Positions 12,001 through 46,100 of a stretch of DNA of 64,000 bases are shown one piece after another (the stretch's first letter is position 1; each line of letters begins with the position of its first letter). The stretch comes from Eledone cirrhosa (Eukaryota). Where the stretch lies: positions 415,586,001 to 415,650,000 of the forward strand of contig OZ024741.1 of the NCBI GenBank assembly GCA_964016885.1. Direction: 5' to 3'. The notes under the pieces were generated by a model. The model did no database searches and was not told the DNA's origin. It saw only the letters and a program-made list of their open reading frames with translations. The translations under genes and the position numbers were made by a program.

Positions 12001-12125
12001 AAGACACTTTATGTCACATTGCTCCAGTCAACTGTGTCCTTGAGCAAGACACTTTATGTCACATTGCTCCAGTCCACTGTGTCCTTGAGCAAGATACTTT
12101 ATGTCACATTGCTCCAGTCCACTGT
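1..12125. repeat. 45-bp satellite array (~270 units, runs off the left edge), consensus TTTATGTCACATTGCTCCAGTC(C/A)ACTGTGTCCTTGAGCAAGACAC
   Basis: Direct 45-bp periodicity; C/A dimorphism (GTCCAC/GTCAAC); recurrent 43-bp variant (GATACTTTGTCAC). Unit matches the central domain of the SINE at ~31474-31512. Confidence 0.99.
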
Positions 12126-13368: not shown

Positions 13369-13900
13369 GGGCGGTGGATTGGTAGTATCGGTAGAGGGTC
13401 GGACGCCATGCTTTCTAGCATAGTTACGTCCCTTTACGATCTGAGTTCAAATCCCGCCGAGGTTGACTTTGCCTTTCATCCTTACGGGGTCGATAAAATA
13501 AAGTACCAGTGAGGCACTGGGTAGTTGCTGGCCTTGTGCCTAAAGTAGAAACAATTATTTAATATTATGGGGTCGATAAAATAAAGTACCAGTAATGTAC
13601 TGGGTAATTGCTGGCCTTGTGCCAAAAGTAGAAACAATTATTTAATATGGCTTGGCAGTATCGGTAGAGGGTCGGACGCCATGCTTTGATGCATAGAGTT
13701 ACGGCCCTTTATGGTCTGAGTTCAAATCTCTCCGAGGTTAACTTTACCTTTCATCCTTACGGTGGTTGATATAATAAAGTACCAGTAATACACTGGATAA
13801 TTGCTGGCCTTGTGCCAAAAGTAGAAACAATTATTTAATATAGAAAGTACCAGTAATACACTGAGGTAATTGCTGGCCTTGTGCCAAAAGCAAAAACAAT
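13369..13900 (+). mobile_element. Cluster of tRNA-derived SINEs (family A): two near-full copies (13369-13553, ~13649-13832) plus two tandemly duplicated 3' ends
   Basis: A-box-like TGGTAGTATCGG, B-box GAGTTCAAATCC, conserved core CTTTGCCTTTCATCCTTACGGGGTCGATAAAATAAAGTACCAGT, 3' end TTGCTGGCCTTGTGCCAAAAGTAGAAAC present four times. Confidence 0.9.
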
Positions 13901-14149
13901 TATATAATATAGAATATTTATGTAACTATATATTATATATATAAAGTGTGTGTATATATATATGTATATAAATATATACACGTGTGTATATAGAGTGTAT
14001 GTGTATATATATGTATATAAATATGTACACGTGTGTATATAAATACCATTGTATAATATGTTATCAATAAAATGTCTTGAAAACAGTAAATATGTTATTT
14101 ATGTCTCAGTAATTATTGTTTGACTTATGTCTCATGTTGGCATGGGTTA

Positions 14150-14480
14150 ACTTGACCTCTGACTCATGTTGACCTCTCTGACCCATGTTGATCTCTCTCT
14201 CTCTCATGTTGACCTCTCTAACCCATGTTGACCTCTCTCCCATGTTGACCTCTCTCTCTCATGTTGATCTCTATCTTCCATGTTGACCTCTATCTCCCAT
14301 GTTGATCTATCTCCCACGTTGACCTCTCTCTCCCATGTTGACCTCTCTCTCTCCCATGTTGACCTCTCTCTCTCCCATGTTGACCTCTCTCCCATGTTGA
14401 CCTCTATCTCCCATGTTGACCTCTCTCTCCCATGTTGACCTCTATCTCCCATGTTGACCTCTATCTCCCATGTTAACCTG
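14150..14480. repeat. ~19-23-bp minisatellite CCCATGTTGACCTCT(CT)n
   Basis: About 15 copies differing in the length of the internal CT tract. Confidence 0.92.
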
Positions 14481-22970: not shown

Positions 22971-23293
22971 ATCATCATCTTTTACGTCCACTTTTCCCTG
23001 TTTGCAAGGGTGGGACGGGAACTGATTCTGGCTTAATTTCTACACCTGGATGCCCTTCCTAACACCAACCTCATTTACAGTGAGTGGTGGGTGCTTTTTT
23101 GCCGTGGCACCTCCACGACCACTTTGCAGTGGAATGATAGGGTCTGGGGTCCCTATCATTCCACTGCAAAGTGGTCTCATTTCTACAGCTGAGTAAACTG
23201 GAGCAATGTGAAATAAAGTGTCTTGCTCAAGGGAACAACACATCACCCGGTCTGAGAATTGAACTCACAACCTTTCGATTGCAAGCCCAATGC
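22971..23293 (-). mobile_element. CORE-type SINE (family B) copy
   Basis: Highly similar to 14697-15016 along its length, including the RTE-like tail. Confidence 0.9.
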
Positions 23294-23369: not shown

Positions 23370-23800
23370 CAACATCATTGGAGGTGTTATATCAGAGTTT
23401 TCCTTCTCCTAGAATTCTGCCTTGACAAAGGCTAAAGGGTCATCTCTCCCGGTGATTTTGGATGGCCATTGACTCTTAAGAGCTCCTTTGCCCTTTGCCA
23501 GGTTTTGTTTTTAGTCCTCCAGGATGTCCAAAGTCACCCTCCTCACCAAGAAACCTTGGTGGGGTTGCCAGTTTAGTGGCCAACGACCCGACCATGAGAC
23601 AGGTTGTACTGGGATACATGTTACCAGTAGCACCAACTGGTGACCTGACATATCTCTTAAATGGGGCCCTAACAGGTACTACTACTCCGGGCCAGAGCAG
23701 ACCTGGGAGTTATGACAACTAAGGAGTAACTCCACATTCCCCACAGCTCCTGAACTCGAGCCTTGCCACTGGATGTAGTTTAATGTCATACCCAGGATAT
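23370..23800 (-). mobile_element. Non-coding interspersed repeat (family C), possibly derived from an RTE-type 5' UTR
   Basis: GC-balanced block between (CATA)n tracts; minus strand contains CTAGGAGAAGGAAAACTC, which I recall from RTE 5' UTRs; a second partial copy lies at 26776-26935. Confidence 0.6.
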
Positions 23801-24298: not shown

Positions 24299-24319
24299 AT
24301 ATATAAAATACACTATATA

Positions 24320-26760: not shown

Positions 26761-26775
26761 TATATATATATATAT

Positions 26776-26935
26776 ATATCAGGTCAGGTCAGGTCAGGTC
26801 AGCCTCTTACTGGTACCATGTAACCCAGTATATTACTGGTACTATGTAAACCAGTATGCTACTGGTACCATGTAACCCAGTATATTACTGGTACCATGTA
26901 ACCTAGTACAAATCTATTTCAAGGTTGAGTGGTCA
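26776..26935 (+). repeat. Family C fragment with internal (CAGGT)n and 26-bp tandem amplification (~4 copies)
   Basis: Unit TACTGGTACCATGTAACCCAGTATAT at 26808, 26834, 26860, 26886; matches the reverse complement of ~23595-23652. Confidence 0.85.
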
Positions 26936-26948
26936 TATATATATATAC

Positions 26949-26980
<32 letters not shown>

Positions 26981-26981
<1 letters not shown>

Positions 26982-27190
26982 AGTCCCGGGTTCAATCGGG
27001 GGTAACCACAGTTAGTAAGGTACTCAATACATTAGTAAAGTGTAAATATCATGTTTAATATATAAATGGCTTCTACAGGACTAGAACTGTCTCATTCAAA
27101 AGAAATCATCAGGAAAGCCCTTCCTGGTGATTTCTTTTGAATGAGACAGTTCTGGTCCTGTAGAAGCCATTTATATATTAAACATGATAT
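26981..27190. mobile_element. Foldback element (~70-bp arms, 27046-27190) with degenerate hammerhead motif; probable PLE pseudo-LTR remnant
   Basis: Near-perfect palindrome centred ~27118; minus strand reads GGCUUUC CUGAUGA UUUC-UUUU-GAAU GAGAC AG...CU GUA GAAGCC; unpaired tail 26981-27045; flanked by (TG)n and (TA)n. Confidence 0.75.
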
Positions 27191-27834
27191 ATATATATAT
27201 ATATATTCATCGCCATTTAACGTCTATCCGCCCCATGGTATCTCTCTCAGCCATCCCACTTACTTGCCAAACATTGTTCAGAAAGTAATAAAATATTTTA
27301 TTTAACCAGTCACTGCCTTCTTCAGTTGACATGACACACTGGAATGTTGAAGCAACCAATAGTTCTCTTTACAGAACAAGACACCAGCCTGTTGTCACGT
27401 AATGTCAACGTCTCAACAAGACACTACTCCTTCCCACCCCTCTATACATGTATAGTGACACAACTGAACCTCCTACGTAGTTGCTCGACTTTCTGGGGGA
27501 ACTCTCAGGACTTGGATAACCCCACCACATCACATCACATCCGGTCATTAAATGTTGCTACTTTATCCCCTGTGAAATTTTATTGTGAATCACATTGATA
27601 CAGCAGCTGGAGAATCTAATAATTTTATTTTACATTAAAACAACATTATACATGACAAAAAAAAAGCATTACAAGAAATTCCATATTTACGAATGGACTT
27701 TTTTTGTCATGTATATTATTTTTTTATGTCTAAAGAAATTTAATTGTCGCGAGAATGTTGCCACTTAAAATAAAATTTCGCTGGAGATAAATTAGCAAAA
27801 TTTAATAAGTGGGAGGTGGGGGGTTATTCGAGAC

Positions 27835-28215
27835 CTGAGAGTATATATAGACCTGTAACCCTTCCCTGGTGGAGTCGTGGGAGCACCGTAGTGACATAAG
27901 AGTTTATATCTAGGGCGAGTAAAATTCCCGTGATAAAAGATAAGTTTCTTGGATATTTATTTTTAAAAAACTGGCGGAGCCCATCTCCTCTCCAAGTCTG
28001 AACACAGCAGATTTCTTCCAGAGAAGAAGACACAGAATGATAGAAAATAATGAGAAAGAGATATAAAGAAAGAATTAACCCAGTATTAGACTGGTACTTC
28101 ATTTTTATCGACTTCGAATAGACGAAAGACAAAGTTGACCTCGGTGGGATTTGAACTGAAAGAACCGGAACCACAAAGCATTCTATCTGACGTTCTAACA
28201 ACTCTGACCTTCTAG
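27835..28215 (-). mobile_element. Family A SINE variant with extended 3' region (A-ext)
   Basis: Minus strand B-box AGTTCAAATCCC, family A core, then CAGTCTAATACTGGG...CTGGAAGAAATCTGCTGTG...GAGATGGGCTCC; paralogous to 29520-30005 and 32300-32600. Confidence 0.75.
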
Positions 28216-28233
28216 AAACAATAATAATAATTA

Positions 28234-28407
28234 TTTCTACTTTTGGCACAAGGCCAGCAATTATCTCAGTACATTACTGGTACTTTATTTTATCGACCCC
28301 GTAAGGATGAAAGGCAAAGTTAACCTCGGCGGGATTTGAACTCAGATCATAAAGCGCCGTAACTCTATGCTGCAAAGCATGGCGTCCGACCCTCTACCGA
28401 TACTGCC
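28234..28407 (-). mobile_element. Family A tRNA-SINE copy
   Basis: Reverse complement of the 13649-13832 copy. Confidence 0.9.
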
Positions 28408-28410
28408 AAA

Positions 28411-28652
28411 ATAATAATGATAATAATAATGAAATATTGTGTACAGTGCTCAGGTGACTACAACTCATCAAAGGTGTATGTATAGTACATAGGGTAATGT
28501 ACAAACGTCAGGAAAATGAACAGTGCACGAGTCATGATATACACATGTGTGCATGTGTATAGAAGGGGTACATCAGGTGTAGTTTTGGGGGATTTCGGGA
28601 AACATGAGTGTTTTAAAGGATGCAGTGTCTCGGCAGCTAACAACTGACGCAG
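28411..28652 (-). mobile_element. CR1-like LINE 3' end (ORF2 tail + 3' UTR + (ATT)n)
   Basis: Minus strand translates ASVVSCRDTASFKTLMFPEIPQNYT*, like CR1/L2 C-termini (P.SVV....SFK); UTR repeated at 13050-13175 and ~29385-29410. Confidence 0.65.
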
Positions 28653-28842
28653 CCAAACCTCCCTCAACTCACAACCTGTCATCTTTAAAAAAGGACACAT
28701 TGAATAATGTGAACGAGTGTCTGTAATCCCTCCTCCCGCACCAAAGAATAAATTAAGACGATATGGTCACGACTGGAACGTCTTTTGATCTCGCTCCGAT
28801 TTTACTCTGGGGTAAACAACAATGTAAATAAGTTTTTTACAG

Positions 28843-28949
28843 CTAGAAAGTTATATAAAGACAATAACGACGGTCCTAGAAGTGATGGTACAAGTGGTGT
28901 TACATATTTTAATAGCGGCCAGCATATCCCTTTAATTGTCGATCAGCAC
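28843..28949 (+). CDS. Candidate 107-nt internal exon of an unidentified gene
   Basis: TTTTTTACAG| acceptor, |GTACGT donor, one open frame RKLYKDNNDGPRSDGTSGVTYFNSGQHIPLIVDQH in non-repetitive-looking sequence; no recognisable homology. Confidence 0.3.
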
Positions 28950-29229
28950 GTACGTCCACATACGTAGAGTGGGTGATTCCATTTAGTACAAGACCTTTTT
29001 CTCCTAATCCAGCAGTCAAGCATTGTCTGTCTACCGTTAAAGATGTATAGAAGTCTGACCCCTAAACTCCTTATGGCAGTGAGATCTGTAAGTATTAAGG
29101 CTCTTAGCAATAATTAATTGATTATGTGTATCTCTATTTAATCTTATAAAATAAATTTATTCACAATTGTATAACATTACAAATTGTTTATGATTCTTGC
29201 AGAATGAAAATGTTTATCGACGACATTTA

Positions 29230-29367
29230 ACATAGTTACGTCCCTTTATGATCTGAGTTCAAATCCCGCCGAGGTTAATTTTGCCTTTCATCCTTACGGG
29301 GTCGATAAAATAAAGTACCAGTAATGTACTGGATAATTGCTGGCCTTGTGCCAAAAGTAGAAACAAT
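29230..29367 (+). mobile_element. 5'-truncated family A SINE
   Basis: Matches ~13419-13553. Confidence 0.9.
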
Positions 29368-29425
29368 TATATTTGTAATGTTATAATAATGAAATTATTG
29401 TGTACAGTGTGTATTGTGTACATAT

Positions 29426-29461
<36 letters not shown>

Positions 29462-29519
29462 TAATAAAAGTTTATTGAACAAAAATATAACAAATACAAT
29501 TAATTATTGCAAGGGTTAC

Positions 29520-30005
29520 CTAATGTATGTATGGTCCCATAACTCTGGGAGAATTGTAAGGAGGCCGTATTGATATACGGCGCTTCTTGGGCATTTTAAG
29601 CTTGGTGGAGCCCATCTCTCTCCAGGCCTGACCTGGTGGAGCCCATCTCTCTCCAGGCCTGACCTGGTGGAGCCCATCTCTCTCCAGGCCTGACCTGGTG
29701 GAGCCCATCTCTCTCCAGGCCTGACCTGGTGGAGCCCATCTCTCTCCAGGCCTGACCTGGTGGAGCCCATCTCTCTCCAGGCCTGACCTGGTGGAGCCCA
29801 TCTCTCTCCAGGCCTGAGCATAACTGATTTCTTCAAGAGAAAGATAGAAAGTAAGAAAGAGATATAGAGGAAGAATCGACCCAGTACTAGACTGCTACAT
29901 TTTTTTATTGACCTCGAAAGGATGAAAGGCAAAGTTGACCTCAGCGGGATTTGAACTCAGAAAGCTGGAACAAATTCCACGAAGCATTCTATCTGACATT
30001 CTAAC
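29520..30005 (-). mobile_element. A-ext SINE copy carrying an internal 31-bp tandem array
   Basis: Minus-strand B-box GAGTTCAAATCCC near 29947-29959, family A core, and tail homologous to 27835-28215 and 32300-32600. Confidence 0.78.
29604..29817. repeat. 31-bp minisatellite GGTGGAGCCCATCTCTCTCCAGGCCTGACCT, ~7 identical copies
   Basis: Units start at 29604, 29635, 29666, 29697, 29728, 29759, 29790. Confidence 0.97.
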
Positions 30006-30169
30006 TATTTTACAAATATAACTCACCACAAATTAATACAGCCACTTAAAGAAATTCCTTTTGTCTGCTTAGAGTAATGGTTATACAAAGGCAAATGTAA
30101 AAAGCATTCACACTAAGTGGAAACTGCAGATATAAGACATCTGACTGATATAATGACAAGTCAGTCAAT

Positions 30170-30425
30170 CATATTGGTGGCCTCCCCACAGCCCCGGCGG
30201 ACAGAATGGAGAAGGCGTTTCCCCGGAGGACGGCAAAGGAGACGCGCTGGAAAAGCCATTCCAGCTCGCGAGGCTCACACCTGCGGCTGGCCAGCTCAGC
30301 GCCTATGGTGGTGAGTAGTGAGGTGGCCCTAGGGCCGAGGACACTAGAGGTCTCCAATGCCTGTCGGAGAGCGACCGGTATTTGGAGGGTTTGGCCTCCT
30401 CAGCCCGACGTGCAGCAGAACCTGG
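30170..30425 (-). mobile_element. CRE-like non-LTR retrotransposon fragment (restriction-like endonuclease C-terminus)
   Basis: GSAARRAEEAKPSKYRSL / LETSSVLGP...ELEWLFQRVSFAVLRGNAFSIL fits the AA..AE..K..KY, ET.G..G and FQR.S.A..RGNA motifs of CRE-clade ORFs. Confidence 0.78.
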
Positions 30426-30539
30426 GTTAGTCGCAGATTACACCAGGTTGCAGCTGATCAATGCGAAAGAAAGACAAATAAACAAAACCAACCATCAATT
30501 CTGCAGTGTCGATCACACATCACACCACAAGAGTCAACA

Positions 30540-31155
30540 GAATATTTTGAGGCAAGACAACACTCTGGCAGAATTACAGCAGGTGATGGTGAGGTTCTGA
30601 AACAACCAAGCACCCTCACGGGTATCACCTGATACATCGGTAAGGCCGGGTGATAGCATGGCTAAGTCACTGGAACAACTAAACACCCTCACCAGGAATA
30701 TCACCTGATACTTCGGTAAGGCCAGGTGATAGCGTGGATAAGTCACTGGAACAACCAAGCACCCTCACCGGGAGCACCACCTGACACTTTAGTAGGCGAA
30801 CCGCCAACAATGCAATGACAATAAAAGATACTTTTTAGTTCTAAAATAAACATTAATTTCCTTCAACAAACATATTTATAGGTACCATCTTTAAATTTCA
30901 AGAATTACATATGTATGTGTATGAAATGATAACAAGAACTTCGCTGTCAGCGGCCCAGCTCTACCAAACGTTTCTAACGCTACAGGCTGGAAAAAATAAT
31001 TATTAGATAAATCAGGCATTTCTGAATTTTATTCCGTCCGGCAACGGAAGCAGTGACCCTCACATTTACCGCGGCATCCATGACATGGGTATGAGCAAAA
31101 GAGTCACTGATTGTGACGTCCCAGGTGAGACACCTGCTTCTTACCCAGGGACATG
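30540..31155 (-). mobile_element. Second CRE-like endonuclease fragment, interrupted by ~135 bp of AT-rich DNA, with a ~75-bp internal tandem repeat
   Basis: PWVRSRCLTWDVTISDSFA...NKIQK/DLSNNYFFQPVALETFGRAGP (31155-30935), resuming with EGAWLFQ; the EGAWLFQ-coding segment recurs near 30600, 30675 and 30750. Confidence 0.75.
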
Positions 31156-31222
31156 TACTTCTATTTAATCTTATGTATTTGTTATAGGATAATAAACCTT
31201 TAAAACATAGTTCTAGCTATAC

Positions 31223-31748
31223 CAGTGTTTCCCAACCTATGGCAAATTTCAGGTGTGTCACAAAAATTATATAATTTTTTCTGTCATACTTAGGAAAAAT
31301 TGTAAAAATAGGAGATGCGAAATATTTTAGATGTTTGTGAAATTGTGTCCAAATAGTTGTATCGTTATTGGATATATTCTATGTAAAATGTGAAGGCACA
31401 TGGCTTAGTGGTTAGAGCATCGGGATTGCAATCGAAAGGTTGTGAGTTCAATTCTCAGACCGGGTGATGTGTTGTTTCCTTGAGCAAGACATTTTATTTC
31501 ACATTGCTCCAGTTTACTCAGCTGTAGAAATGAGATGATAGGACTGGCGTCCCTATCATTAAATCACCCAAGACACCTCCAACGAGATATACCTTGGAGG
31601 AGGCCAGCTAAACCTGCATAGGTGTGAGATGTAACATACATTCTATGTAAAGTGGAAGTAATTTTTTTACATTGTAATAATTTCATGGGCCACAGAAAAA
31701 TTCTGGGTTGAAAGTGGGCCGTGAGCTAAAAATGGTTGGGAACCACTG
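31223..31748. mobile_element. Non-autonomous hAT (Charlie-like) DNA transposon / MITE
   Basis: TIRs CAGTGTTTCCCAACC / GGTTGGGAACCACTG; 8-bp TSD AGCTATAC (31215-31222) vs AGCCAGAC (31749-31756), 6/8 identical. Confidence 0.82.
31388..31639 (+). mobile_element. Family B CORE-type SINE inserted in the MITE, with an alternative 3' end
   Basis: A-box TGGCTTAGTGG, B-box GAGTTCAATTC, core TCCTTGAGCAAGACATTTTATTTCACATTGCTCCAGT; 12-bp TSD ATTCTATGTAAA at 31376-31387 and 31640-31651. Confidence 0.88.
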
Positions 31749-32059
31749 AGCCAGACAAACAATCTAGTAATGTCCTAAGTCAACGAATTACTGTCTTCTG
31801 TTATTGGATAACTACGGCCTAATACGTTAATGTCATTATTAAGTAATGTAGTTTATTTCCATACAACAAATATATTAGATGAAATATTTAGAGGCGAAGA
31901 AAAGAAAGAAAAATTAGTAAGGTAGGAAAAGAAAAGGGTGGGGAAAGAAACAAAAAGGAAAAAAAAACATTAACAGGTAATACTCACATCTTTTAATGTT
32001 GCAATATTAAAGAAAATGTAAAGGAAGAGGTGAACAACCGAGCCAACACCAAAGCAAAA

Positions 32060-32225
32060 GACAGCAGCGAGAAGTACTGGGCAACCTCTCTAATGATTTT
32101 TTGAGGCAAGAGAGCATACTCGCAGTGTTGCCTCGGGTGATGACGAGGCTAATGCGCTGGAACAGCCAAACGCTTTCATGAGCATCACCAGTTACCTCTG
32201 TTAGGCGAGCCGCCTGTGATGACAA
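32060..32225 (-). mobile_element. Third CRE-like C-terminal fragment
   Basis: RLTEVTGDAHESVWLFQRISLVITRGNTASMLSCL. Confidence 0.75.
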
Positions 32226-32299
32226 GAACTACCTAATTAAGGACAAAAGAGTAAGTTATAAAATTTCTTGGTTGAAGTATTTTACTGGAGTTACAATGT

Positions 32300-32600
32300 C
32301 TAAGGTGGTGATTCCAGCTCTCTGCTGTCTGAGTTCAAATCCCACCAAGGTCAACTTTGCCTTTCAGTCCTTTCGACATCGATAAAAAAAAAGTACCAGT
32401 CTAATACTGGGGTCGATTCTTCCTCTATATCTCTTTCTCATTTCCTTTCTCTCACTCTTTCTTTCTCTGGAAGATATCTGCTGTATTCAAACCTGGCGAG
32501 AGGAGATGAGCTCAACCAGGTTTAAAAATACCCAAGACACTGTATGTCAATTCGGCACCACTACAACCCCAGTAGAAGTAACAAGTCCATACATACAATA
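32300..32600 (+). mobile_element. A-ext SINE copy
   Basis: GAGTTCAAATCCC, family A core, then CAGTCTAATACTGGGGTCGATTCTTCCTCTATATCTC...CTGGAAGATATCTGCTG...GAGATGAGCTC. Confidence 0.78.
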
Positions 32601-32605
32601 ATGGT

Positions 32606-32860
32606 TTCTTATATAGGCACAAGACCAGCAATTTTGGAGGAGGAGAAAGTCGATTAAATCGACCCAGTGCGTGACTGGTACTTTATTTTATCGACCCCGT
32701 AAGGATGAAAGGAAAAGTTAACCTCGGCGGGATTTGAACTCAGATCATAACTCTATGCTGCAAAGCATGGCGTCCGACTCTCTACCGATACTGCCAAAAT
32801 AATTGTCTCTACTTTAGGCACAAGGCCAGCAATTACCCAGTGCATTACTGGTTGCCAAAA
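32606..32860 (-). mobile_element. Family A SINE copy plus an adjacent 3'-end fragment
   Basis: Reverse complement of the family A head and core (32670-32797); extra GGCACAAGGCCAGCAATTACCCAGT at ~32817-32841. Confidence 0.85.
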
Positions 32861-33206
32861 TAATGATACCTCTTTCATCAATCCCCGGCCTAATAAGCCT
32901 CCAAACATAAAACAGACTTTAGAAGGAGTTATCTAAGAGGGATCACTGTTATTTTGTCACCAGTTTTATCGTAAATAAAGAGAATACTGGGAGACAACAT
33001 CAACCTGTTAGAAACAGCAGATCAGTAGATCCCACTCTGATTACGCTATCTTTCAAATTGAAGGACACATTGTGTAATATAGCCCTAGAAATACCTTTTA
33101 AACATTTAGATAGCCATAAATACAATGGCGTTTGAGAGAGTTTTCAGCATTAAATAACAGAGTTATCTCCCTTTGTACGTTTCAATCAACTTTATTAAAT
33201 TCCCTT

Positions 33207-33415
33207 TAACTGGTACAGCTAGTCGTTGGGGTAACACTCTAGACGGTGGCACCCATCTCCCCATAACTGGTACAGCTAGTCGTTGGGGTGGCACCCTAGA
33301 CGGTGGCACCCATCTCCCCATAACTGGTACAGCTAGTCGTTGGGGTGCCACCCTAGACGGTGGCACCCATCTCCCCATAACTGGTACAGCTAATTATTGG
33401 GGTGCCACCCTAGAC
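33207..33415. repeat. 57-bp minisatellite, ~3.7 copies
   Basis: TAACTGGTACAGCTAGTCGTTGGGGTGGCACCCTAGACGGTGGCACCCATCTCCCCA at 33207, 33264, 33321, 33378. Confidence 0.95.
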
Positions 33416-33863
33416 ATTTGACTGTGTGTCCATCGTGGTGTTTGGGTCTTAGAGATACTTGGCACGCATCTCCTTACAACGTAATGGTACTTCTTGTTTT
33501 GGGGTATTATTGTAGAAAGAAACCCCTACCAATTTCGGGGGGGGGGGGGGAATAATTTTTTTCCTTTGGTTTTATGGTGTGCTATCATTTAAACTTACCT
33601 CCTAATATGGCGAAAAGGGAGGGGGGAACCATCGGACTTTCCCCTCCCAGTTTTCTTTACCAAATCTTTCTCCCTCTGCTACCAACTAATCTTACCTCCG
33701 AACATCTCCCTCTTCCATTTTCCAGGGGAAAAGTCCCTTGCAGTATTTTTGGAGATAAGTTTAATTGATAGCACATTAAAAAATAAAATAAAATAAAATT
33801 ATTTATCATACTTCATTACTTTGCCATGTTCTCATATTTATTACGTTTATCTAAATACAAAAG

Positions 33864-34048
33864 TGGAGCAAATTGGTAGAACCGATAGAGCATCAGACAA
33901 CATTCTTTACATTCTAAGTTCAAATCGTGTTCAGGTTAACTTTGTCTTTCATCCTTATGGGAGTCGATAAAATAAAGTACCATTGGGGTCTATTTAATCA
34001 ACTTTCACCTCCCCTTCAAATTGCTGGCCTTGTGCCAAAGTAGAAATT
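33864..34048 (+). mobile_element. Diverged family A SINE just upstream of the 21-bp satellite
   Basis: AAGTTCAAATCG B-box-like motif, CTTTCATCCTTATGGGAGTCGATAAAATAAAGTACC, TTGCTGGCCTTGTGCCAAAGTAGAAA. Confidence 0.82.
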
Positions 34049-34123
34049 ATGTAAAAATAACAAACTATCATTAAATACTTGAAATATATTTTTTAAATCT
34101 CCATAATGTCATCTACTTGACAT

Positions 34124-37100
34124 TCTCTGTTATATTAACTGGGGTCTCTGTTATATTAACTGGGGTCTCTGTTATATTAACTCGGGTCTCTGTTATATTA
34201 ACTGGGGTCTCTGTTATATTAACTGGGGCCTCTGTTATATTAACTGGGGTCTCTGTTATATTAACTGGGGTCTCTGTTATATTAACTGGGGCCTCTGTTA
34301 TATTAACTGGGGCCTCTGTTATATTAACTGGGGTCTCTGTTATATTAACTGGGGCCTCTGTTATATTAACTGGGGCCTCTGTTATATAAACTGGGGTCTC
34401 TGTTATATTAACTGGGGTCTCTGTTATATTAACTGGGGCCTCTGTTATATTAACTGTGGTCTCTGTTATATTAACTGGGGTCTCTGTTATATTAACTGGG
34501 GCCTCTGTTATATTAACTGTGGTCTCTGTTATATTAACTGGGGCCTCTGTTATATTAACTGGGGCCTCTGTTATATTAACTGGGGTCTCTGTTATATTAA
34601 CTGGGGTCTCTGTTATATTAACTGGGGTCTCCGTTATATTAACTGGGGTCTCTATTATATTAACTGGGGTCTCTGTTATATTAACTGGGGTCTCTGTTAT
34701 ATTAATTGGGGTATGTTATATTAACTGGGGTCTCTGTTATATTAACTGGGGTCTCTGTTATATTAAATGGGGTCTCTGTTATATTAACTCGGGTCTCTGT
34801 TATATTAACTGGGGCCTCTGTTATATTAACTGAGGTCTCTGTTATATTAACTGGGGTATGTTATATTAACTGGGGTCTCTGTTATATTAACTTGGGTCTC
34901 TGTTATATTAACTGGGGTCTCTGTTATATTAAATGCGGTCTCTGTTATATTAAATGGGGTCTCTGTTATATTAACTCGGGTCTCTGTTATATTAACTGGG
35001 GCCTCTGTTATATTAACTGGGGCCTCTGTTATATTAACTGGGGCCTCTGTTATATTAACTGGGGTCTCTGTTATATTAACTGGGGCCCCTGTTATATTAA
35101 CTGGGGCCTCTGTTATATTAACTGGGGCCTCTGTTATATTAAATGGGGTCTCTGTTATATTAACTGGGGCCTCTGTTATATTAAATGGGGCCTCTGTTAT
35201 ATTAACTGAGGTCTCTGTTATATTAACTGGGGCCTCTGTTATATTAACTGGGGTCTCTGTTATATTAACTGGTGCCTCTGTTATATTAAATGGGGTCTCT
35301 GTTATATTAACTGGGGCCTCTGTTATATTAACTGGGGCCTCTGTTATATTAACTGGGGTCTCTGTTATATTAACTGGGGTCTCTGTTATATTAACTGGGG
35401 TCTCTGTTATATTAACTGGGGCCTCTGTTATATTAACTGAGGTCTCTGTTATATTAACTGGGGCCTCTCTTATATTAACTGGGGTCTCCGTTATATTAAA
35501 TGGGGTCTCTGGTATATTAACTGGGGCCTCTCTTATATTAACTGGGGTCTCTGTTATATTAACTGGGGTCTCTGTTATATTAACTGGGGTCTCTGTTATA
35601 TTAACTGGGGTATGTTATATTAACTGGGGTTTCTGTTATATTAACTGGGGCCTCTGTTATATTAACTGGGGCCTCTGTTATATAAACTGGGGCCTCTGTT
35701 ATATTAAATGGGGTCTCTGTTATATTAACTGGGGTCTCTGTTATATTAACTGGGGTCTCTGTTATATTAACTGGGCCTCTGTTATATTAACTGGGGCCTC
35801 TGTTATATTAACTGGGGCCTCTGTTATATTAACTGGGGTCTCTGTTATATTAACTGGGGTCTCTGTTATATTAACTGGGGTATGTTATATTAACTGGGGT
35901 CTCTGTAATATTAACTGGGGTCTCTATTATATTAACTGGGGTCTCAGTTATATTAACTGGGGTCTCTGTTATATTTACTGGGGTATGTTATATTAACTGG
36001 GGTCTCTGTTATATTAACTGGGCCCTCTGTTATATTAATTGGGGCCTCTGTTATAATAACTGGGGTCTGTGTAATATTAACTGGGGTCTGTGTAATATTA
36101 ACTGGGGTCTCTGTTATATTAACTGGGGTCTCTGTTATATTAACTGGGGTCTCTGTTATATTAACTGGGGTCTCTGTTATATTAACTGGGGTCTCTGTTA
36201 TATTAACTCGGGTCTGTTATATGAACTGGGGTCTCTGTTATATTAACTCGGGTCTGTTATATGAACTGGGGTCTCTGTTATATTAACTGGTGTATGTTAT
36301 ATTAACTGGGGTCTCTGTAATATTAACTGGGGTCTCTATTATATTAACTGGGGTCTCTGTTATATTAACTGGGGTCTCTGTTATATTAACTGGAGTCTCT
36401 GTTATATTAACTGGGGTCTCTGTTATATTAACTGGGGCCTCTGTTATATTAACTGGGGCCTCTGTTATATTAACTGGGGCCTCTGTTATATTAACTGGGG
36501 CCTCCGTTTTATTAACTGGGGTCTCTGTTATATTAACTGGGGTCTCTGTTATATTAAATGGGGTCTCTGTTATATTAACTGGGGTTCTGTTATATTGACT
36601 GGTGCCTCTGTTATATTAACTGGGTTCTCTGTTATATTAACTGGGGCCTCTGTTATATTAACTGGGGTCTCTGTTATATTAACTGGGGTCTCTGTTATAT
36701 TAACTGGGGCCTCTGTTATATTAACTGGGGCCTCTGTTATATTAACTGGGGGCTCTGTTATATTAACAGGGGCTTCTGTTATATTAACTGGGGTCTCTGT
36801 TATATTAACTGGGGCCTCTGTTATATTAAATGGGGTCTCTGTTATATTAACTGGGGTCTCTGTTATATTAACTGGGGCCTCTGTTATATTAGCTGGGGCC
36901 TCTGTTATATTAACTGTGGTCTCTGTTACATTAAATGGGGTCACTGTTACATTAAATGGGGTCTCTGTTATATTAACTGGGGCCTCTGTTATATTAACTG
37001 GTGCCTCTGTTATATTAACTGGGGTCTCTGTTATATTAACTGGGGTCTCTGTTATATTAACTGGGGTATGTTATATTAACTGGGGTTTCTGTTATATTAA

Positions 37101-40100
37101 CTGGGGCCTCTGTTATATTAACTGGGGCCTCTGTTATATAAACTGGGGCCTCTGTTATATTAAATGGGGTCTCTGTTATATTAACTGGGGTCTCTGTTAT
37201 ATTAACTGGGGTCTCTGTTATATTAACTGGGCCTCTGTTATATTAACTGGGGCCTCTGTTATATTAACTGGGGCCTCTGTTATATTAACTGGGGTCTCTG
37301 TTATATTAACTGGGGTCTCTGTTATATTAACTGGGGTATGTTATATTAACTGGGGTCTCTGTAATATTAACTGGGGTCTCTATTATATTAACTGGGGTCT
37401 CAGTTATATTAACTGGGGTCTCTGTTATATTTACTGGGGTATGTTATATTAACTGGGGTCTCTGTTATATTAACTGGGCCCTCTGTTATATTAATTGGGG
37501 CCTCTGTTATAATAACTGGGGTCTGTGTAATATTAACTGGGGTCTGTGTAATATTAACTGGGGTCTCTGTTATATTAACTGGGGTCTCTGTTATATTAAC
37601 TGGGGTCTCTGTTATATTAACTGGGGTCTCTGTTATATTAACTGGGGTCTCTGTTATATTAACTCGGGTCTGTTATATGAACTGGGGTCTCTGTTATATT
37701 AACTCGGGTCTGTTATATGAACTGGGGTCTCTGTTATATTAACTGGTGTATGTTATATTAACTGGGGTCTCTGTAATATTAACTGGGGTCTCTATTATAT
37801 TAACTGGGGTCTCTGTTATATTAACTGGGGTCTCTGTTATATTAACTGGAGTCTCTGTTATATTAACTGGGGTCTCTGTTATATTAACTGGGGCCTCTGT
37901 TATATTAACTGGGGCCTCTGTTATATTAACTGGGGCCTCTGTTATATTAACTGGGGCCTCCGTTTTATTAACTGGGGTCTCTGTTATATTAACTGGGGTC
38001 TCTGTTATATTAAATGGGGTCTCTGTTATATTAACTGGGGTTCTGTTATATTGACTGGTGCCTCTGTTATATTAACTGGGTTCTCTGTTATATTAACTGG
38101 GGCCTCTGTTATATTAACTGGGGTCTCTGTTATATTAACTGGGGTCTCTGTTATATTAACTGGGGCCTCTGTTATATTAACTGGGGCCTCTGTTATATTA
38201 ACTGGGGGCTCTGTTATATTAACAGGGGCTTCTGTTATATTAACTGGGGTCTCTGTTATATTAACTGGGGCCTCTCTTATATTAACTGGGGTCTCCGTTA
38301 TATTAAATGGGGTCTCTGGTATATTAACTGGGGCCTCTCTTATATTAACTGGGGTCTCTGTTATATTAACTGGGGTCTCTGTTATATTAACTGGGGTCTC
38401 TGTTATATTAACTGGGGTATGTTATATTAACTGGGGTTTCTGTTATATTAACTGGGGCCTCTGTTATATTAACTGGGGCCTCTGTTATATAAACTGGGGC
38501 CTCTGTTATATTAAATGGGGTCTCTGTTATATTAACTGGGGTCTCTGTTATATTAACTGGGGTCTCTGTTATATTAACTGGGCCTCTGTTATATTAACTG
38601 GGGCCTCTGTTATATTAACTGGGGCCTCTGTTATATTAACTGGGGTCTCTGTTATATTAACTGGGGTCTCTGTTATATTAACTGGGGTATGTTATATTAA
38701 CTGGGGTCTCTGTAATATTAACTGGGGTCTCTATTATATTAACTGGGGTCTCAGTTATATTAACTGGGGTCTCTGTTATATTTACTGGGGTATGTTATAT
38801 TAACTGGGGTCTCTGTTATATTAACTGGGCCCTCTGTTATATTAATTGGGGCCTCTGTTATAATAACTGGGGTCTGTGTAATATTAACTGGGGTCTGTGT
38901 AATATTAACTGGGGTCTCTGTTATATTAACTGGGGTCTCTGTTATATTAACTGGGGTCTCTGTTATATTAACTGGGGTCTCTGTTATATTAACTGGGGTC
39001 TCTGTTATATTAACTCGGGTCTGTTATATGAACTGGGGTCTCTGTTATATTAACTCGGGTCTGTTATATGAACTGGGGTCTCTGTTATATTAACTGGTGT
39101 ATGTTATATTAACTGGGGTCTCTGTAATATTAACTGGGGTCTCTATTATATTAACTGGGGTCTCTGTTATATTAACTGGGGTCTCTGTTATATTAACTGG
39201 AGTCTCTGTTATATTAACTGGGGTCTCTGTTATATTAACTGGGGCCTCTGTTATATTAACTGGGGCCTCTGTTATATTAACTGGGGCCTCTGTTATATTA
39301 ACTGGGGCCTCCGTTTTATTAACTGGGGTCTCTGTTATATTAACTGGGGTCTCTGTTATATTAAATGGGGTCTCTGTTATATTAACTGGGGTTCTGTTAT
39401 ATTGACTGGTGCCTCTGTTATATTAACTGGGTTCTCTGTTATATTAACTGGGGCCTCTGTTATATTAACTGGGGTCTCTGTTATATTAACTGGGGTCTCT
39501 GTTATATTAACTGGGGCCTCTGTTATATTAACTGGGGCCTCTGTTATATTAACTGGGGGCTCTGTTATATTAACAGGGGCTTCTGTTATATTAACTGGGG
39601 TCTCTGTTATATTAACTGGGGCCTCTGTTATATTAAATGGGGTCTCTGTTATATTAACTGGGGTCTCTGTTATATTAACTGGGGCCTCTGTTATATTAGC
39701 TGGGGCCTCTGTTATATTAACTGTGGTCTCTGTTACATTAAATGGGGTCACTGTTACATTAAATGGGGTCTCTGTTATATTAACTGGGGCCTCTGTTATA
39801 TTAACTGGTGCCTCTGTTATATTAACTGGGGTCTCTGTTATATTAACTGGGGTCTCTGTTATATTAACTGGGTTCTCTGTTATATTAACTGGGGTATGTT
39901 ATATTAACTGGGGTCTCTGTTATATTAACTGGGGTCTCTGTTATATTAACTGGGGTATGTTATATTAACTGGGGTCTCTGTTATATTAACTGGGGCCTCT
40001 GTTATATTAACTGGGGTATGTTATATTAACTGGGGTCTCTGTTATATTGACTGGGGTACGTTATATTAACTGGGGTCTCTGTAATATTAACTGGGGTCTC

Positions 40101-43100
40101 TATTATATTAACTGGGGTCTCTGTTATATTAACTGGGGCCTCTGTTATATTAACTGGGGCCTCTGTTATATTAACTGGGGTCTCTGTTATATTAACTGGG
40201 GCCTCTGTTATATTAACTGGGGTCTCTGTTATATTAACTGGCGCCTCTGTTATATTAACTGGGGCCTCTGTTATATTAACTGGGGCCTCTGTTATATTAA
40301 CTGGGGTCTCTGTTATATTAACTAGGGTCTCTGTTATGTTAAATGGGGTCTCTGTTATATTAACTGGGGTCTCTGTTATATTAACTGGTGCCTCTGTTAT
40401 ATTAACTGGGGTCTCTGTTATATTAACTGGGGCCTCTGTTATATTAACTGGGGCCTCTATTATATTAACTGGGGTCTCTGTTATATTAACTGGGGTATGT
40501 TATATTAACTGGAGCCTCTGTAATATTAACTAGGGTCTCTATTATATTAACTGGGATCTCTGTTATATTAACTGGGGTCTCTGTTATATTAACTGGCGCC
40601 TCTGTTATATTAACTGGGGCCTCTGTTATATTAACTGGGGTCTCTGTTATATTAACTGGGGTCTCTGTTATATTAACTGGGGCCTCTGTTATATTAAATG
40701 GGGTCTCTGTTATATTAACTGGGGTCTCTGTTATATTAACTGGGGCCTCTGTTATATTAGCTGGGGCCTCTGTTATATTAACTGTGGTCTCTGTTACATT
40801 AAATGGGGTCTCTGTTACATTAAATGGGGTCTCTGTTATATTAACTGGGGCCTCTGTTATATTAACTGGGGCCTCTGTTATATTAACTGGGGTCTCTGTT
40901 ATATTAACTGGGGTCTCTGTTATATTAACTGGGTTCTCTGTTATATTAACTGGGGTATGTTATATTAACTGGGGTCTCTGTTATATTAACTGGGGTCTCT
41001 GTTATATTAACTGGGGTATGTTATATTAACTGGGGTCTCTGTTATATTAACTGGGGCCTCTGTTATATTAACTGGGGCCTCTGTTATATTAACTGGGGCC
41101 TCCGTTATATTAACTGGGGTCTCTGTTATATTAACTGGGGTCTCTGTTATATTAACTGGTGCCTCTGTTATATTAACTGGGGTCTCTGTTATATTAACTG
41201 GGGTCTCTGTTATATTAACTGGGGTCTCTGTTATATTAACTGGGGCCTCTGTTATATTAACTGGGGCCTCTGTTATATTAACTGGGGGCTCTGTTATATT
41301 AACTGGGGCCTCTGTTATATTAATTGGGGTCTCTGTCATATTAACTGGGGTCTCTGTTATGTTAACTGGGGCCTCTGTTATATTAACTGGGGCTTCTGTT
41401 ATATTAACTGGGGCCTCTGTTATATTAACTGGGGCCTCTGTTATATTAAATGGGGTCTCTGTTATATTAACTGGCGCCTCTGTTATATTAACTGGGGCCT
41501 CTGTTATATTAACTGGGGCCTCTGTTATATTAACTGGGGTCTCTGTTATATTAACTAGGGTCTCTGTTATGTTAAATGGGGTCTCTGTTATATTAACTGG
41601 GGTCTCTGTTATATTAACTGGTGCCTCTGTTATATTAACTGGGGTCTCTGTTATATTAACTGGGGCCTCTGTTATATTAACTGCGGCCTCTGTTATATTA
41701 ACTGGGTCTCTGTTATATTAACTGGGGTCTCTGTTATATTAACTGGGGTATGTTATATTAACTGGGGCCTCTGTAATATTAACTAGAGTCTCTATTATAT
41801 TAACTGGGATCTCTGTTATATTAACTGGGGCCTCTGTTATATTAACTGGGGTCTCTGTTATATTAACTGGGGTCTCTGTTATATTATCTGGAGTCTCTGT
41901 TATATTAACTGGGGTCTCTGTTATATTAACTGGGGCCTCTGTTATATTAACTGGGGCCTCTGTTATATTAACTGGGTCTCCGTTATATTAACTGGGGTCT
42001 CTGTTATATTAACTGGGGTCTCTGTAATCTTAAATGGTGCCTCTGTTATATTAACTGCGGTCACTGTTATATTAGCTGGGGCCTCTGTTATATTAACTGG
42101 GGTCTCTATTATATTAACTGGGGTCTCTGTTATCTTAAATGGGGTCTCTGTTATATTAACTGGGACCTCTGTTATATTAACTGGGGTCTCTGTTATATTA
42201 ACTGGGGGTCTCTGTTATATTTACTGGGGTATGTTATATTAACTGGGGTCTCTGTTATTTTAACTGGGCCCTCTGTCATATTAATTGGGGCCTCTGTTAT
42301 AATAACTGGGGTCTGTGTAATATTAACTGGGGTCTGTGTAATATTAACTGGGGTCTATGTTATATTAACTGGGGTCTCTGTTATATTAACTGGGGCCTCT
42401 GTTATATTGACTGGGGCCTCTGTTATGTTAACTGGGGCCTCTGTTATATTAACTGGGCTCTCTGTTATATTAACTGGGGTCTCTGTTATATTAACTGGGG
42501 TCTCTGTTATATTAACTGGGGTCTCTGTTATATTAACTCGGGTCTGTTATATTAACTGGGGTCTCTGTTATATTAACTGGTGTATGTTATATTAACTGGG
42601 GTCTCTGTAATATTAACTGGGGTCTCTATTATATTGACTGGGGTCTCTGTTATATTAACTGGGGTCTCTGTTATATTAACTGGGGTCTCTGTTATATTAA
42701 CTCGGGTCTCTGTTATATTAACTGGGGGCTCTGTTATATTAACTGGGGCTTCTGTTATATTAACTGGGGTCTCTGTTATATTAACTGGAGCCTCTGTTAT
42801 ATTAAATGGGGTCTCTGTTATATTAACTGGGGTCTCTGTTATATTAACTGGGGCCTCTGTTATATTAGCTGGGGCCTCTGTTATATTAACTGGGGTCTCT
42901 GTTACATTAAATGGGGTCTCTGTTACATTAAATGGGGTCTCTGTTATATTAACTGGGGCCTCTGTTATATTAACTGGGGCCTCTGTTATATTAACTGGGG
43001 TCTCTGTTATATAAACTGGGGCCTCTGTTATATTAACTGGGTTCTCTGTTATATTAACTGGGGTATGTTATATTAACTGGGGTCTCTGTTATATTAACTG

Positions 43101-46100
43101 GGGTCTCTGTTATATTAACTGGGGTATGTTATATTAACTGGGGTCTCTGTTATATTAACTGGGGCCTCTGTTATATTAACTGGGGCCTCTGTTATATTAA
43201 CTGGGGCCTCCGTTATGTTAACTGGGGTCTCTGTTATATTAACTGGGGTCTCTGTTATATTAACTGGTGCCTCTGTTATATTAACTGGGGTCTCTGTTAT
43301 ATTAACTGGGGTCTCTGTTATATTAACTGGGGTCTCCTGTTATATTAACTGGGGTCTCTGTTATATTAACTGGGGCCTCTGTTATATTAACTGGGGCCTC
43401 TGTTATATTAACTGGGGGCTCTGTTATATTAACTGGGGCCTCTGTTATATTAATTGGGGTCTCTGTCATATTAACTGGGATCTCTGTTATGTTAACTGGG
43501 GCCTCTGTTATATTAACTGGGGCTTCTGTTATATTAACTGGGGCCTCTGTTATATTAACTGGGGCCTCTGTTATATTAACTGGGGTCTCTGTTATATTAA
43601 CTGGCACCTCTGTTATATTAACTGGGGCCTCTGTTATATTAACAGGGGCCTCTGTTATATTAACTGGGGTCTCTGTTATATTAACTAGGGTCTCTGTTAT
43701 GTTAAATGGGGTCTCTGTTATATTAACTGGGGTCTCTGTTATATTAACTGGTGCCTCTGTTATATTAACTGGGGTCTCTGTTATATTAACTGGGGCCTCT
43801 GTTATATTAACTGGGGCCTCTGTTATATTAACTGGGGTCTCTGTTATATTAACTGGGGTATGTTATATTAACTGGGGCCTCTGTAATATTAACTAGGGTC
43901 TCTATTATATTAACTGGGATCTCTGTTATATTAACTGGGGCCTCTGTTATATTAACTGGGGTCTCTGTTATATTAACTGGGGTCTCTGTTATATTGTCTG
44001 GAGTCTCTGTTATATTAACTGGGGTCTCTGTTATATTAACTGGGGCCTCTGTTATATTAACTGGGGCCTCCGTTATATTAACTGGGGTCTCTGTTATATT
44101 AACTGGGGTCTCTGTTATCTTAAATGGGGTCTCTGTTATATTAACTGGGGTCTCTGTTATATTAACTGGTGCCTCTGTTATATTAACTGGGGTCTCTATT
44201 ATATTAACTGGGGTCTCTGTTATCTTAAATGGGGTCTCTGTTATATTAACTGGGACCTCTGTTATATTAACTGGGGTCTCTGTTATATTAACTGGGGTCT
44301 CTGTTATATTTACTGGGGTATGTTATATTAACTGGGGTCTCTGTTATATTAACTGGGCCCTCTGTTATATTAATTGGGGCCTCTGTTATAATAACTGGGG
44401 TCTGTGTAATATTAACTGGGGTCTGTGTAATATTAACTGGGGTCTATGTTATATTAACTGGGGTCTCTGTTATATTAACTGGGGCCTCTGTTATATTGAC
44501 TGGGGCCTCTGTTATGTTAACTGGGGCCTCTGTTATATTAACTGGGCTCTCTGTTATATTAACTGGGGTCTCTGTTATATTAACTGGGGTCTCTGTTATA
44601 TTAACTGGGGTCTCTGTTATATTAACTGGGGTCTCTGTTATATTAACTCGGGTCTGTTATATTAACTGGGGTCTCTGTTATATTAACTGGGGTATGTTAT
44701 ATTAACTGGGGTCTCTGTAATATTAACTGGGGTCTCTATTATATTAACTGGGGTCTCTGTTATATTAACTGGGGTCTCTGTTATATTAACTGGAGTCTCT
44801 GTTATATTAACTGGGGTCTCTGTTATATTAACTGGGGCCTCTGTTATATTAACTGGGGGCTCTGTTATATTAACTGGGGCTTCTGTTATATTAACTGGGG
44901 TCTCTGTTATATTAACTGGAGCCTCTGTTATATTAAATGGGGTTTCTGTTATATTAACTGGGGCCTCTGTTATATTAGCTGGGGCCTCTGTTATATTAAC
45001 TGGGGTCTCTGTTACATTAAATGGGGTCTCTGTTACATTAAATGGGGTCTCTGTTATATTAACTGGGGCCTCTGTTATATTAACTGGGGCCTCTGTTATA
45101 TTAACTGGGGTCTCTGTTATATAAACTGGGGCCTCTGTTATATTAACTGGGTTCTCTGTTATATTAACTGGGGTATGTTATATTAACTGGGGTCTCTGTT
45201 ATATTAACTGGGGTCTCTGTTATATTAACTGGGGTATGTTATATTAACTGGGGTCTCTGTTATATTAACTGGGGCCTCTGTTATATTAACTGGGGCCTCT
45301 GTTATATTAACTGGGGCCTCCGTTATGTTAACTGGGGTCTCTGTTATATTAACTGGGGTCTCTGTTATATTAACTGGTGCCTCTGTTATATTAACTGGGG
45401 TCTCTGTTATATTAACTGGGGTCTCTGTTATATTAACTGGGGTCTCCTGTTATATTAACTGGGGTCTCTGTTATATTAACTGGGGCCTCTGTTATATTAA
45501 CTGGGGCCTCTGTTATATTAACTGGGGGCTCTGTTATATTAACTGGGGCCTCTGTTATATTAATTGGGGTCTCTGTCATATTAACTGGGATCTCTGTTAT
45601 GTTAACTGGGGCCTCTGTTATATTAACTGGGGCTTCTGTTATATTAACTGGGGCCTCTGTTATATTAACTGGGGCCTCTGTTATATTAACTGGGGTCTCT
45701 GTTATATTAACTGGCGCCTCTGTTATATTAACTGGGGCCTCTGTTATATTAACTGGGGCCTCTGTTATATTAACTGGGGTCTCTGTTATATTAACTAGGG
45801 TCTCTGTTATGTTAAAAGGGGTCTCTGTTATATTAACTGGGGTCTCTGTTATATTAACTGGTGCCTCTGTTATATTAACTGGGGTCTCTGTTATATTAAC
45901 TGGGGCCTCTGTTATATTAACTGGGGCCTCTGTTATATTAACTGGGGTCTCTGTTATATTAACTGGGGTATGTTATATTAACTGGGGCCTCTGTAATATT
46001 AACTAGGGTCTCTATTATATTAACTGGGATCTCTGTTATATTAACTGGGGCCTCTGTTATATTAACTGGGGTCTCTGTTATATTAACTGGGGTCTCTGTT

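What the first reader, a model, noticed from the sequence alone, without database searches (positions are those of the whole stretch)
26776..33415. Satellite nursery: several independent tandem repeats caught emerging from hairpin-containing transposon segments
Seen: the 26-mer at 26808-26909 comes from family C; the 31-mer at 29604-29817 from the A-ext SINE tail; the ~75-mer at 30600-30790 from a CRE ORF; the 45-mer from SINE B; SINE A 3' ends are tandemly duplicated at 13500-13900. Most units contain a short inverted repeat: TACTGG..CCAGTA (26-mer), CCAGG..CCTGG (31-mer), GTGTC.TTG..CAAGACAC (45-mer), GGGTG.CACCC (57-mer), GTTA.TAT.TAAC (21-mer). Inference: copy numbers from 2.5 to hundreds form a series suggesting a locus-wide, hairpin-assisted amplification process that turns TE fragments into satellites.
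Basis: partly seen in the sequence, partly recalled or inferred. Interest (0 to 1): 0.75.

Follow-up and report, generated by a model that had tools for sequence, protein, structure and literature searches.

The report
Retrotransposon minisatellites copied between element copies
Four of the short tandem repeats here are pieces of jumping elements that are repeated the same way at many other places in this animal genome, so they were likely copied in by DNA repair rather than born here, and hairpins are no commoner in such repeats genome-wide than in ordinary jumping-element DNA.

Summary
The arrays are real and five come from retroelement segments. The 21-mer has no detectable parent. They are not a local nursery. 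The 31-, 26-, 73/76- and 45-bp units are tandem, with the same junction, at many loci on other contigs, while unselected SINE copies are single-unit (28 of 28). The window lies 0.65 Mb from a contig end inside a satellite patchwork. Its array density is about 7 times that of giant-contig interiors but equals its neighbours', and 6 of 105 sampled 10-kb stretches match it. The window's nine units are hairpin-rich (percentile 0.85, post hoc), but 76 independently sampled unit families are not (0.50; TE-derived 17: 0.49). Inner units are younger than their host copies and share variants across nearby, unrelated hosts. This suggests rare births followed by ectopic gene conversion into single-unit copies; the proximity signal rests on one marker. 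The class is known (SINE-derived satellites, PMC10702118). This scan noted the same pattern before on other DNA of this genome.

The parts
1..12125 (+). 45-bp satellite from the body of tRNA-type SINE B; starts 8.2 kb upstream of the window; no SINE flank at either end
   Evidence: same unit and junction on C28, C18, C20, C13, C21, C22, C133 and C2:412.75 Mb
13482..13914 (+). Two SINE A copies, each followed by a truncated repeat of its own 3' end (83 and 69 bp, two copies each); not true minisatellites
14165..14479 (.). 19-bp low-complexity minisatellite, no dispersed parent found
23541..23700 (-). Single-unit family-C copy (younger subfamily) holding the segment that forms the 26-mer
26780..26935 (+). 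About 155-bp family-C cassette with the 26-bp array (26807-26908), bounded by (TA)n; near-identical cassette at C7:35.58 Mb and 44 kb upstream on C2
27960..28160 (-). Single-unit SINE A-ext copy (parent state of the 31-mer)
29526..30010 (-). SINE A-ext host with an internal 31-bp array (29603-29817, 7 units); host about 11% from family centre, inner units identical to each other and 1 of 31 from the family unit
30150..30446 (-). Young 5'-truncated copy of a related RT-element family (C-terminal end only); separate from the array host
30480..31213 (-). Decayed 3' end of a single-ORF RT element; array 30597-30789 has two 76-type units then one 73-type unit
31395..31530 (+). Single-unit SINE B copy (parent state of the 45-mer)
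32088..32318 (-). Single-unit copy of the RT-element end (parent state of the 73/76-mer)
32320..32540 (+). Single-unit SINE A-ext copy
33207..33470 (-). 57-bp array (33207-33415) in a dispersed element; shares its junction with a 105-bp array at C2:210.1 Mb and looks like that unit minus about 48 nt; best candidate for a local variant
34124..64000 (.). 21-bp satellite, found only at this end of C2, no TE parent found

Best explanation
The 26-, 31-, 73/76- and 45-bp arrays are internal pieces of abundant retroelements that are tandem with the same junction at many loci of this genome, and the copies here were likely imported rather than born in place. Shown: the units, their parents, the shared junctions, the rarity of the array state and the satellite-rich setting at a contig end. 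Inferred step 1: a rare first duplication arises in one element copy, often between short direct repeats and sometimes without them. Inferred step 2: the array passes to other, single-unit copies of the same element by ectopic homologous repair (gene conversion), which leaves the host's own edges in the first and last unit; the 26-mer and the flankless 45-mer would have moved as DNA cassettes. Inferred step 3: arrays grow and homogenise by slippage and unequal exchange, mostly near contig ends and on small contigs. Hairpins are not required.
For: Same 31-bp junction at 27 distinct loci, 18 on the 31-Mb contig C23, 5 to at least 94 units, each inside its own SINE copy with different flanks. Array state is rare: 28 of 28 unselected non-satellite copies on C1 and 11 of 11 in systematic samples are single-unit. 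The junction motif hits only 3 loci on C1-C4, so an evenly spread dimer master fits badly. Hosts are not clustered (14 label changes against 14.4 shuffled; 21+21 rows). Inner units differ 5.3% from the family unit against 10.6% for monomers. Edge-only variants 33 of 300 sites against 10 of 300 in inner consensus (p=0.0004). One site is A in 22 of 26 inner consensuses, 14 of 28 monomers and 10 of 20 last units. One derived variant is in 10 of 17 C23 loci, 0 of 9 others and 1 of 17 monomers. Arrays under 2 Mb apart share variants (Jaccard 0.20 against 0.06, p<0.001) while their flanks do not (0.741 against 0.746). The window's 76-type signature is in 4 of 20 loci (window, C2:409.7 Mb, two on C1000), and 76-type units sit among 73-type units at C4:64.7, C26 and C24. 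The 26-mer cassette shares 25-26 of 28 flank bases and its end point with two other loci. Hairpin test null.
Against: The proximity signal falls to p=0.19 when the one C23 variant is dropped. Array loci were found with the window's own unit as query (best 40 of 5583 candidates), which favours consensus-like units and the same junction. The host tree has no supported branch, so one origin followed by retrotransposition is not excluded. For the window's own 31-mer the low divergence (1 of 31) is only suggestive. No empty orthologous allele was seen.
Confidence: 0.58

Rival explanations
1. A minor master copy of each element already held the duplication and spread it by retrotransposition; arrays then grew in place where the chromosome region allows.
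For: One junction per family at many loci. A SINE with a built-in 46-49-bp dimer exists here and expands to 20-209 copies. Ahmed and Liang propose this for LTR12 (PMC3389668, passage seen). Single origin not ruled out by the tree. The 26-mer cassette has identical ends at three loci.
Against: Two-unit copies are scarce: one single-junction locus among the 10 listed on C1-C15, 0 of 28 unselected copies. 18 of 27 loci lie on a contig that is 1% of the genome, where 21 sampled stretches held no such SINE copy. Unit variants follow position, not host flanks.
Confidence: 0.2
2. Each array arose independently in its own host copy because the sequence, perhaps a hairpin, fixes both breakpoints.
For: Window units are structured (percentile 0.85). 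In the 26- and 31-mers a 5-6-bp stem ends at the unit end (chance 0.03-0.11 each). Their junctions have 0-1 nt microhomology. The same segments gave other periods elsewhere (22-mer on C1; 31-mer from family C on C17; 41, 45 and 105 from the 57-mer parent). Arrays of 20 copies or more had stem percentile 0.60 (p=0.018, one of 10 tests).
Against: No hairpin excess in 76 sampled families or the 17 TE-derived ones, none at breakpoints. Host edge mutations are mostly absent from inner units. A 3-bp insertion variant sits inside arrays at unrelated loci.
Confidence: 0.14
3. A locus-specific nursery: this 22-kb spacer makes new arrays because it lies between two giant satellites.
For: Density 2.3 per 10 kb against 0.32 in giant-contig interiors (p=0.002) and 0.40 at 20 other sites 0.65 Mb from contig ends (p=0.008), both post hoc. 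No second 57-bp array was found.
Against: Four of five TE-derived units exist elsewhere with the same junction; 6 of 105 sampled stretches are as dense.
Confidence: 0.05
4. Assembly artefact.
For: Repeat-rich region; the 31-mer units are 100% alike.
Against: A short-read contig covers 30606-30768 of the 76-mer array with no difference (may be the assembly's own sample). Units carry shared and private variants across loci.
Confidence: 0.03

Closest known systems
SINE-derived satellites (sSat1-3) of squamates, Vassetzky et al. 2023, PMC10702118 (read parts 1, 3 and 4 of 5 and term passages; no supplements)
   Same: Tandem units cut from part of a SINE, a few to hundreds of copies, one dominant variant at many loci, subtelomeric bias, some arrays with both SINE ends kept.
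   Different: Invertebrate genome; shorter units (26-76 bp against about 70-290); LINE-type ends contribute too; arrays with both parent flanks are the rule for the 31-mer. The paper does not mention hairpins and names conversion only in a reference title.
TE-derived minisatellites of the human genome, Ahmed and Liang 2012, PMC3389668 (passages seen)
   Same: About 23% of minisatellites come from TEs (here at least 17 of 76 sampled families); hot segments inside some elements; most lack flanking direct repeats.
   Different: Human arrays mostly have two units and no genomic hotspot; here the same junction recurs at dozens of loci and arrays reach tens of kb.
Haber-Louis direct-repeat model of minisatellite birth (as described in PMC6947457, passages seen)
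   Same: 6 of 9 usable sampled TE-derived units have direct repeats of about 6-15 nt at their ends.
   Different: The window's 26-, 31-, 45- and 73-bp junctions have 0-1 nt.
Spread of Rsp-like satellite into 1.688 clusters in Drosophila simulans, Sproul et al. 2020, PMC7403614 (passages seen)
   Same: A rare junction forms once and is shared by many loci; spread to sites that already hold homologous sequence, by interlocus conversion or circular DNA.
   Different: Here the landing sites are dispersed single retroelement copies, not satellite clusters; circular DNA was not tested.

Membership tests
SINE-derived satellites (sSat) | Unit is a part of a dispersed SINE, shorter than the SINE | tested here: met
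   45-mer and 31-mer match single-unit copies at 87-97%; not met for the 21-mer
SINE-derived satellites (sSat) | At least four head-to-tail units, terminal unit continuing into SINE sequence | tested here: met
   31-mer: 7 units, both SINE flanks. The window's 45-mer has no SINE flank, but its relatives on C20, C28 and C133 do
SINE-derived satellites (sSat) | One variant at many loci | tested here: met
   27 loci for the 31-mer; at least 9 other arrays for the 45-mer
SINE-derived satellites (sSat) | Subtelomeric bias | tested here: inconclusive
   Window is 0.65 Mb from a contig end; satellite share 0.26 near ends against 0.10 in giant interiors; true telomeres not checked; many loci are internal on small contigs
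tRNA-derived SINE (A, B); CORE-SINE OR2 | tRNA-like head with A and B boxes; CORE domain | not tested
   Box-like motifs read by eye; ARAGORN found no tRNA. CORE likeness of the 45-mer segment is recalled; PMC4758252 only states that octopus OR2 is a CORE SINE
RLE-type non-LTR retrotransposon | Single ORF with RT followed by a C-terminal restriction-like endonuclease (PD..D, KxxKY) | tested here: met
   Array region aligns to the C-terminus of about 980-aa RT proteins; PD and KxxKY seen in sister-family copies; motif described in PMC5678591. Pfam gave no hit on the short pieces
CRE clade | RT phylogeny groups with CRE | not tested
Haber-Louis minisatellite | 5-10-bp direct repeats flank the unit in the parent | tested here: not met
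   0-1 nt at the window's 26-, 31-, 45- and 73-bp junctions; met in 6 of 9 sampled families
Hairpin-assisted amplification | Units richer in hairpins than length- and GC-matched TE windows | tested here: not met
   76 families 0.50/0.53; 17 TE-derived 0.49/0.48; window's own nine 0.85/0.81, post hoc
Interlocus gene conversion | Unit ancestry discordant with host ancestry; donor and empty recipient allele identifiable | tested here: inconclusive
   Discordance seen but one marker carries the proximity signal; no empty allele seen

The most novel reading that the evidence does not exclude
Minisatellites home into retrotransposon copies: a hairpin in the single-unit copy makes it break-prone, the break is repaired off a nearby array-bearing copy, and the array spreads from copy to copy along chromosome ends and small chromosomes, turning a dispersed SINE or LINE family into a network of landing sites for one satellite. 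Hairpins would then drive spread, not birth, and only in the recurrent, microhomology-free families.
Probability: 0.15. Interest if true: 0.7.

Novelty: new member of a known kind. Interest (0 to 1): 0.35.

Why it matters
It extends SINE-derived satellites, described in reptiles, to an invertebrate and to LINE-type ends, in a genome where the same units run from 2 to thousands of copies. It warns that an array sitting inside its parent element can look born in place when it was likely imported. If conversion between dispersed copies is confirmed, it makes an open question testable at base resolution: how one satellite variant reaches many chromosomes. No function is shown, and the hairpin nursery as proposed is not supported.

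Tried and rejected
Hairpin enrichment: positive in the window, null in 76 independent families (105 arrays merged into families, the window's 26-, 45- and 21-mer families dropped). My own idea that one unit end sits at a stem base: not supported in 9 usable of 17 sampled families (8 dropped for partial parents or built-in repeats). A host clade for array-bearing SINEs: none found, tree unresolved (6 array loci and 9 rows of the unselected set dropped for missing anchors). A TE parent for the 21-mer: none. Rfam on 26000-34200: 12 matches, all below gathering score, on palindromes or microsatellites. Pfam on the two short RT-element ends: nothing; a first protein search with the 76-aa piece found nothing. 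Higher-order period in the large arrays: not resolved because of indels. Small contigs were sampled less than planned (23 stretches plus 20 on C23; C25-C27 not sampled). No atlas result was obtained for the endonuclease piece. Seven paper searches listed no paper on cephalopod SINE-derived satellites; PMC13282606 (part 1 of 3 and term passages) does not discuss them in what I saw. Supplements were not read and may bear on this.
Full report
Setting. The window is G000:C2:415,586,001-415,650,000 in a 3.0-Gb animal genome; C2 is 416,293,306 bp, so it lies 0.64-0.71 Mb from the contig end. An octopod identity is my recall of the SINEs and was not tested. A 22-kb spacer of SINEs, LINE pieces and microsatellites lies between a 45-bp and a 21-bp satellite. 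Of 17 stretches sampled in the last 2 Mb of C2, 87% of the bases are long arrays of 21, 39, 44, 45 or 58 bp.

Observation. TRF confirms every array at the stated place. The 45-mer matches three single-unit SINE B copies in the window, the 31-mer two single-unit SINE A-ext copies, and the 76-mer a single-unit copy at 32134-32209. The 26-mer matches a family-C copy near 23600. The 76-mer region aligns to the C-terminus of about 980-aa reverse-transcriptase proteins from 31213 to 30555 on the minus strand, so it is the end of an RLE-type element; the CRE label is untested. The 57-mer has a dispersed parent. The 21-mer and the 19-mer have none in the sampled DNA, and the 21-mer's genome hits are all in its own array. 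The 83- and 69-bp items are two-copy repeats of SINE 3' ends.

Not born here. The 31-mer is tandem at 27 distinct loci among the 30 fetched, 18 of them on C23, with 5 to at least 94 units, the same junction, and each inside its own SINE copy. The query carried that junction, so these counts are biased towards it. The 73/76-mer is tandem at most of 19 other fetched loci. The 26-mer is tandem on C7 and at three other C2 sites, and the same segment gives a 31-bp array on C17. The 45-mer forms arrays on C28, C18, C20, C13, C21, C22, C133 and at C2:412.75 Mb. Those on C20, C28 and C133 sit inside whole SINE copies, whereas the window's 20.3-kb array has no SINE flank. The window's 26-mer cassette shares 25-26 of 28 right-flank bases and its end point with copies on C7 and 44 kb upstream. 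Only the 57-mer has no twin; it shares a junction with a 105-bp array at C2:210 Mb and looks like a deletion product of it (inference).

The array state is rare. A SINE end motif has 1052 exact matches; of the first 30, all on C1, 28 are single-unit and 2 lie in a 22-bp satellite made from the same segment. Eleven of 11 copies in systematic samples are single-unit. The junction motif has 267 matches; the first 100 fall at 10 loci, only 3 of them on C1-C4, which hold over half the genome.

Density. I sampled 119 preset 10-kb stretches away from the window plus 17 beside it. Small arrays of at least 2.5 copies per 10 kb of non-satellite DNA: window 2.27 (5 in 22 kb), neighbours 2.21, C23 1.18, other small contigs 0.83, sites 0.65 Mb from contig ends 0.40, giant interiors 0.32, mid-size contigs 0. 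Six of 105 usable stretches reach the window's value. The window is high but was chosen for that. The excess belongs to a type of domain, not to this locus.

Hairpins. Against length- and GC-matched windows from 285 kb of repeat-covered DNA, the window's nine units average percentile 0.85 for folding energy and 0.81 for longest stem (0.81 and 0.81). This is the set that prompted the idea. In 76 independent families the means are 0.50 and 0.53, and in the 17 with dispersed parents 0.49 and 0.48. Arrays of 20 copies or more gave 0.60 for stems (p=0.018, one of 10 tests). Stems at breakpoints were not enriched (mean 0.44, 9 usable of 17), and 6 of the 9 have about 6-15 nt of direct repeat. So a general hairpin rule fails. 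The gap between the window's units and the 76 families (p=0.0003) is unexplained except by post hoc choice or by the novel case.

How the same junction reached many hosts. Array-bearing hosts do not cluster in a tree of flanks (14 changes, 14.4 shuffled; no supported branch; 21 and 21 rows after dropping 6 and 9). Inner units are half as diverged as monomers (5.3% against 10.6%). The outer edges of first and last units carry host-age mutations that the inner consensus lacks (33 against 10 of 300 sites; the 10 counted by hand). One site is A in 22 of 26 inner consensuses but in half of monomers and last units. Arrays within 2 Mb share variants (0.20 against 0.06; 48 and 277 pairs) although their flanks are no more alike. 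This rests on one variant, found in 10 of 17 C23 loci and 0 of 9 others; without it p=0.19. In the 73/76 family a 3-bp insertion type sits among 73-type units at unrelated loci, and the window's 76, 76, 73 array shares its signature with C2:409.7 Mb and two C1000 loci only. These patterns are what repair of a single-unit copy off an array-bearing donor would leave. They are inference; a dimer master and recurrent precise duplication remain possible.

Known kinds. The class matches SINE-derived satellites of squamates (PMC10702118) and human TE-derived minisatellites (PMC3389668). Births fit the direct-repeat model in part (PMC6947457). The spread resembles Rsp-like in Drosophila (PMC7403614). 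PMC9659126 was seen as passages only. Seven searches listed no paper on this in cephalopods; supplements were not read. Eight earlier notes of this scan on other DNA of the genome report the same pattern; they are unreviewed and not independent support. I gave conversion 20% before reading them and raised it.

Verdict. Real TE-derived arrays of a known kind; local hairpin nursery not supported; import between element copies likely but unproven. Interest 0.35.

Noticed in passing
G000:C23, about 22-26 Mb: Dense cluster of 31-bp arrays in separate SINE copies; 9 of the 10 loci with one derived unit variant lie here.
   Followed up: partly
G000:C1:10.49-10.70 Mb (L220, L221): A 22-bp satellite made from the same SINE segment as the 31-mer, with another junction.
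   Followed up: no
L091-L107 (C2:414.5-416.2 Mb): The end of C2 is a patchwork of 39-, 44-, 58-, 45- and 21-bp satellites; the 44-mer comes from a dispersed element with a direct repeat at the unit ends.
   Followed up: partly
L110, L156, L170, L204, L291, L294: A SINE with a built-in 46-49-bp dimer expands to 8-209 copies at many loci.
   Followed up: no
window 22348-22945, 27043-27193, 24314-24754, 23117-23176: Long near-perfect palindromes (arms up to 171 nt at 100%). A GIY-YIG-like ORF at 20851-21792 (Pfam E=3e-4, below cut-off) suggests Penelope-like ends.
   Followed up: no
window 15539-18788: Near-full LINE with APE-type endonuclease, RT and a PHD finger after the RT; broken by a frameshift and a stop.
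   Followed up: no
L108, L114, L116, L134, L152, L159, L161, L163, L203: Young family-C copies begin directly after (TA)n or (TATG)n tracts, suggesting a microsatellite target or tail.
   Followed up: no
window 34124-64000: Identical variant runs recur about 2.2 kb apart in the 21-mer hits, hinting at larger duplicated blocks; autocorrelation did not resolve them.
   Followed up: partly
window 29603-29817: The 31-bp unit holds a GGTGG word like the minisatellite core and chi motif (recalled, untested).
   Followed up: no
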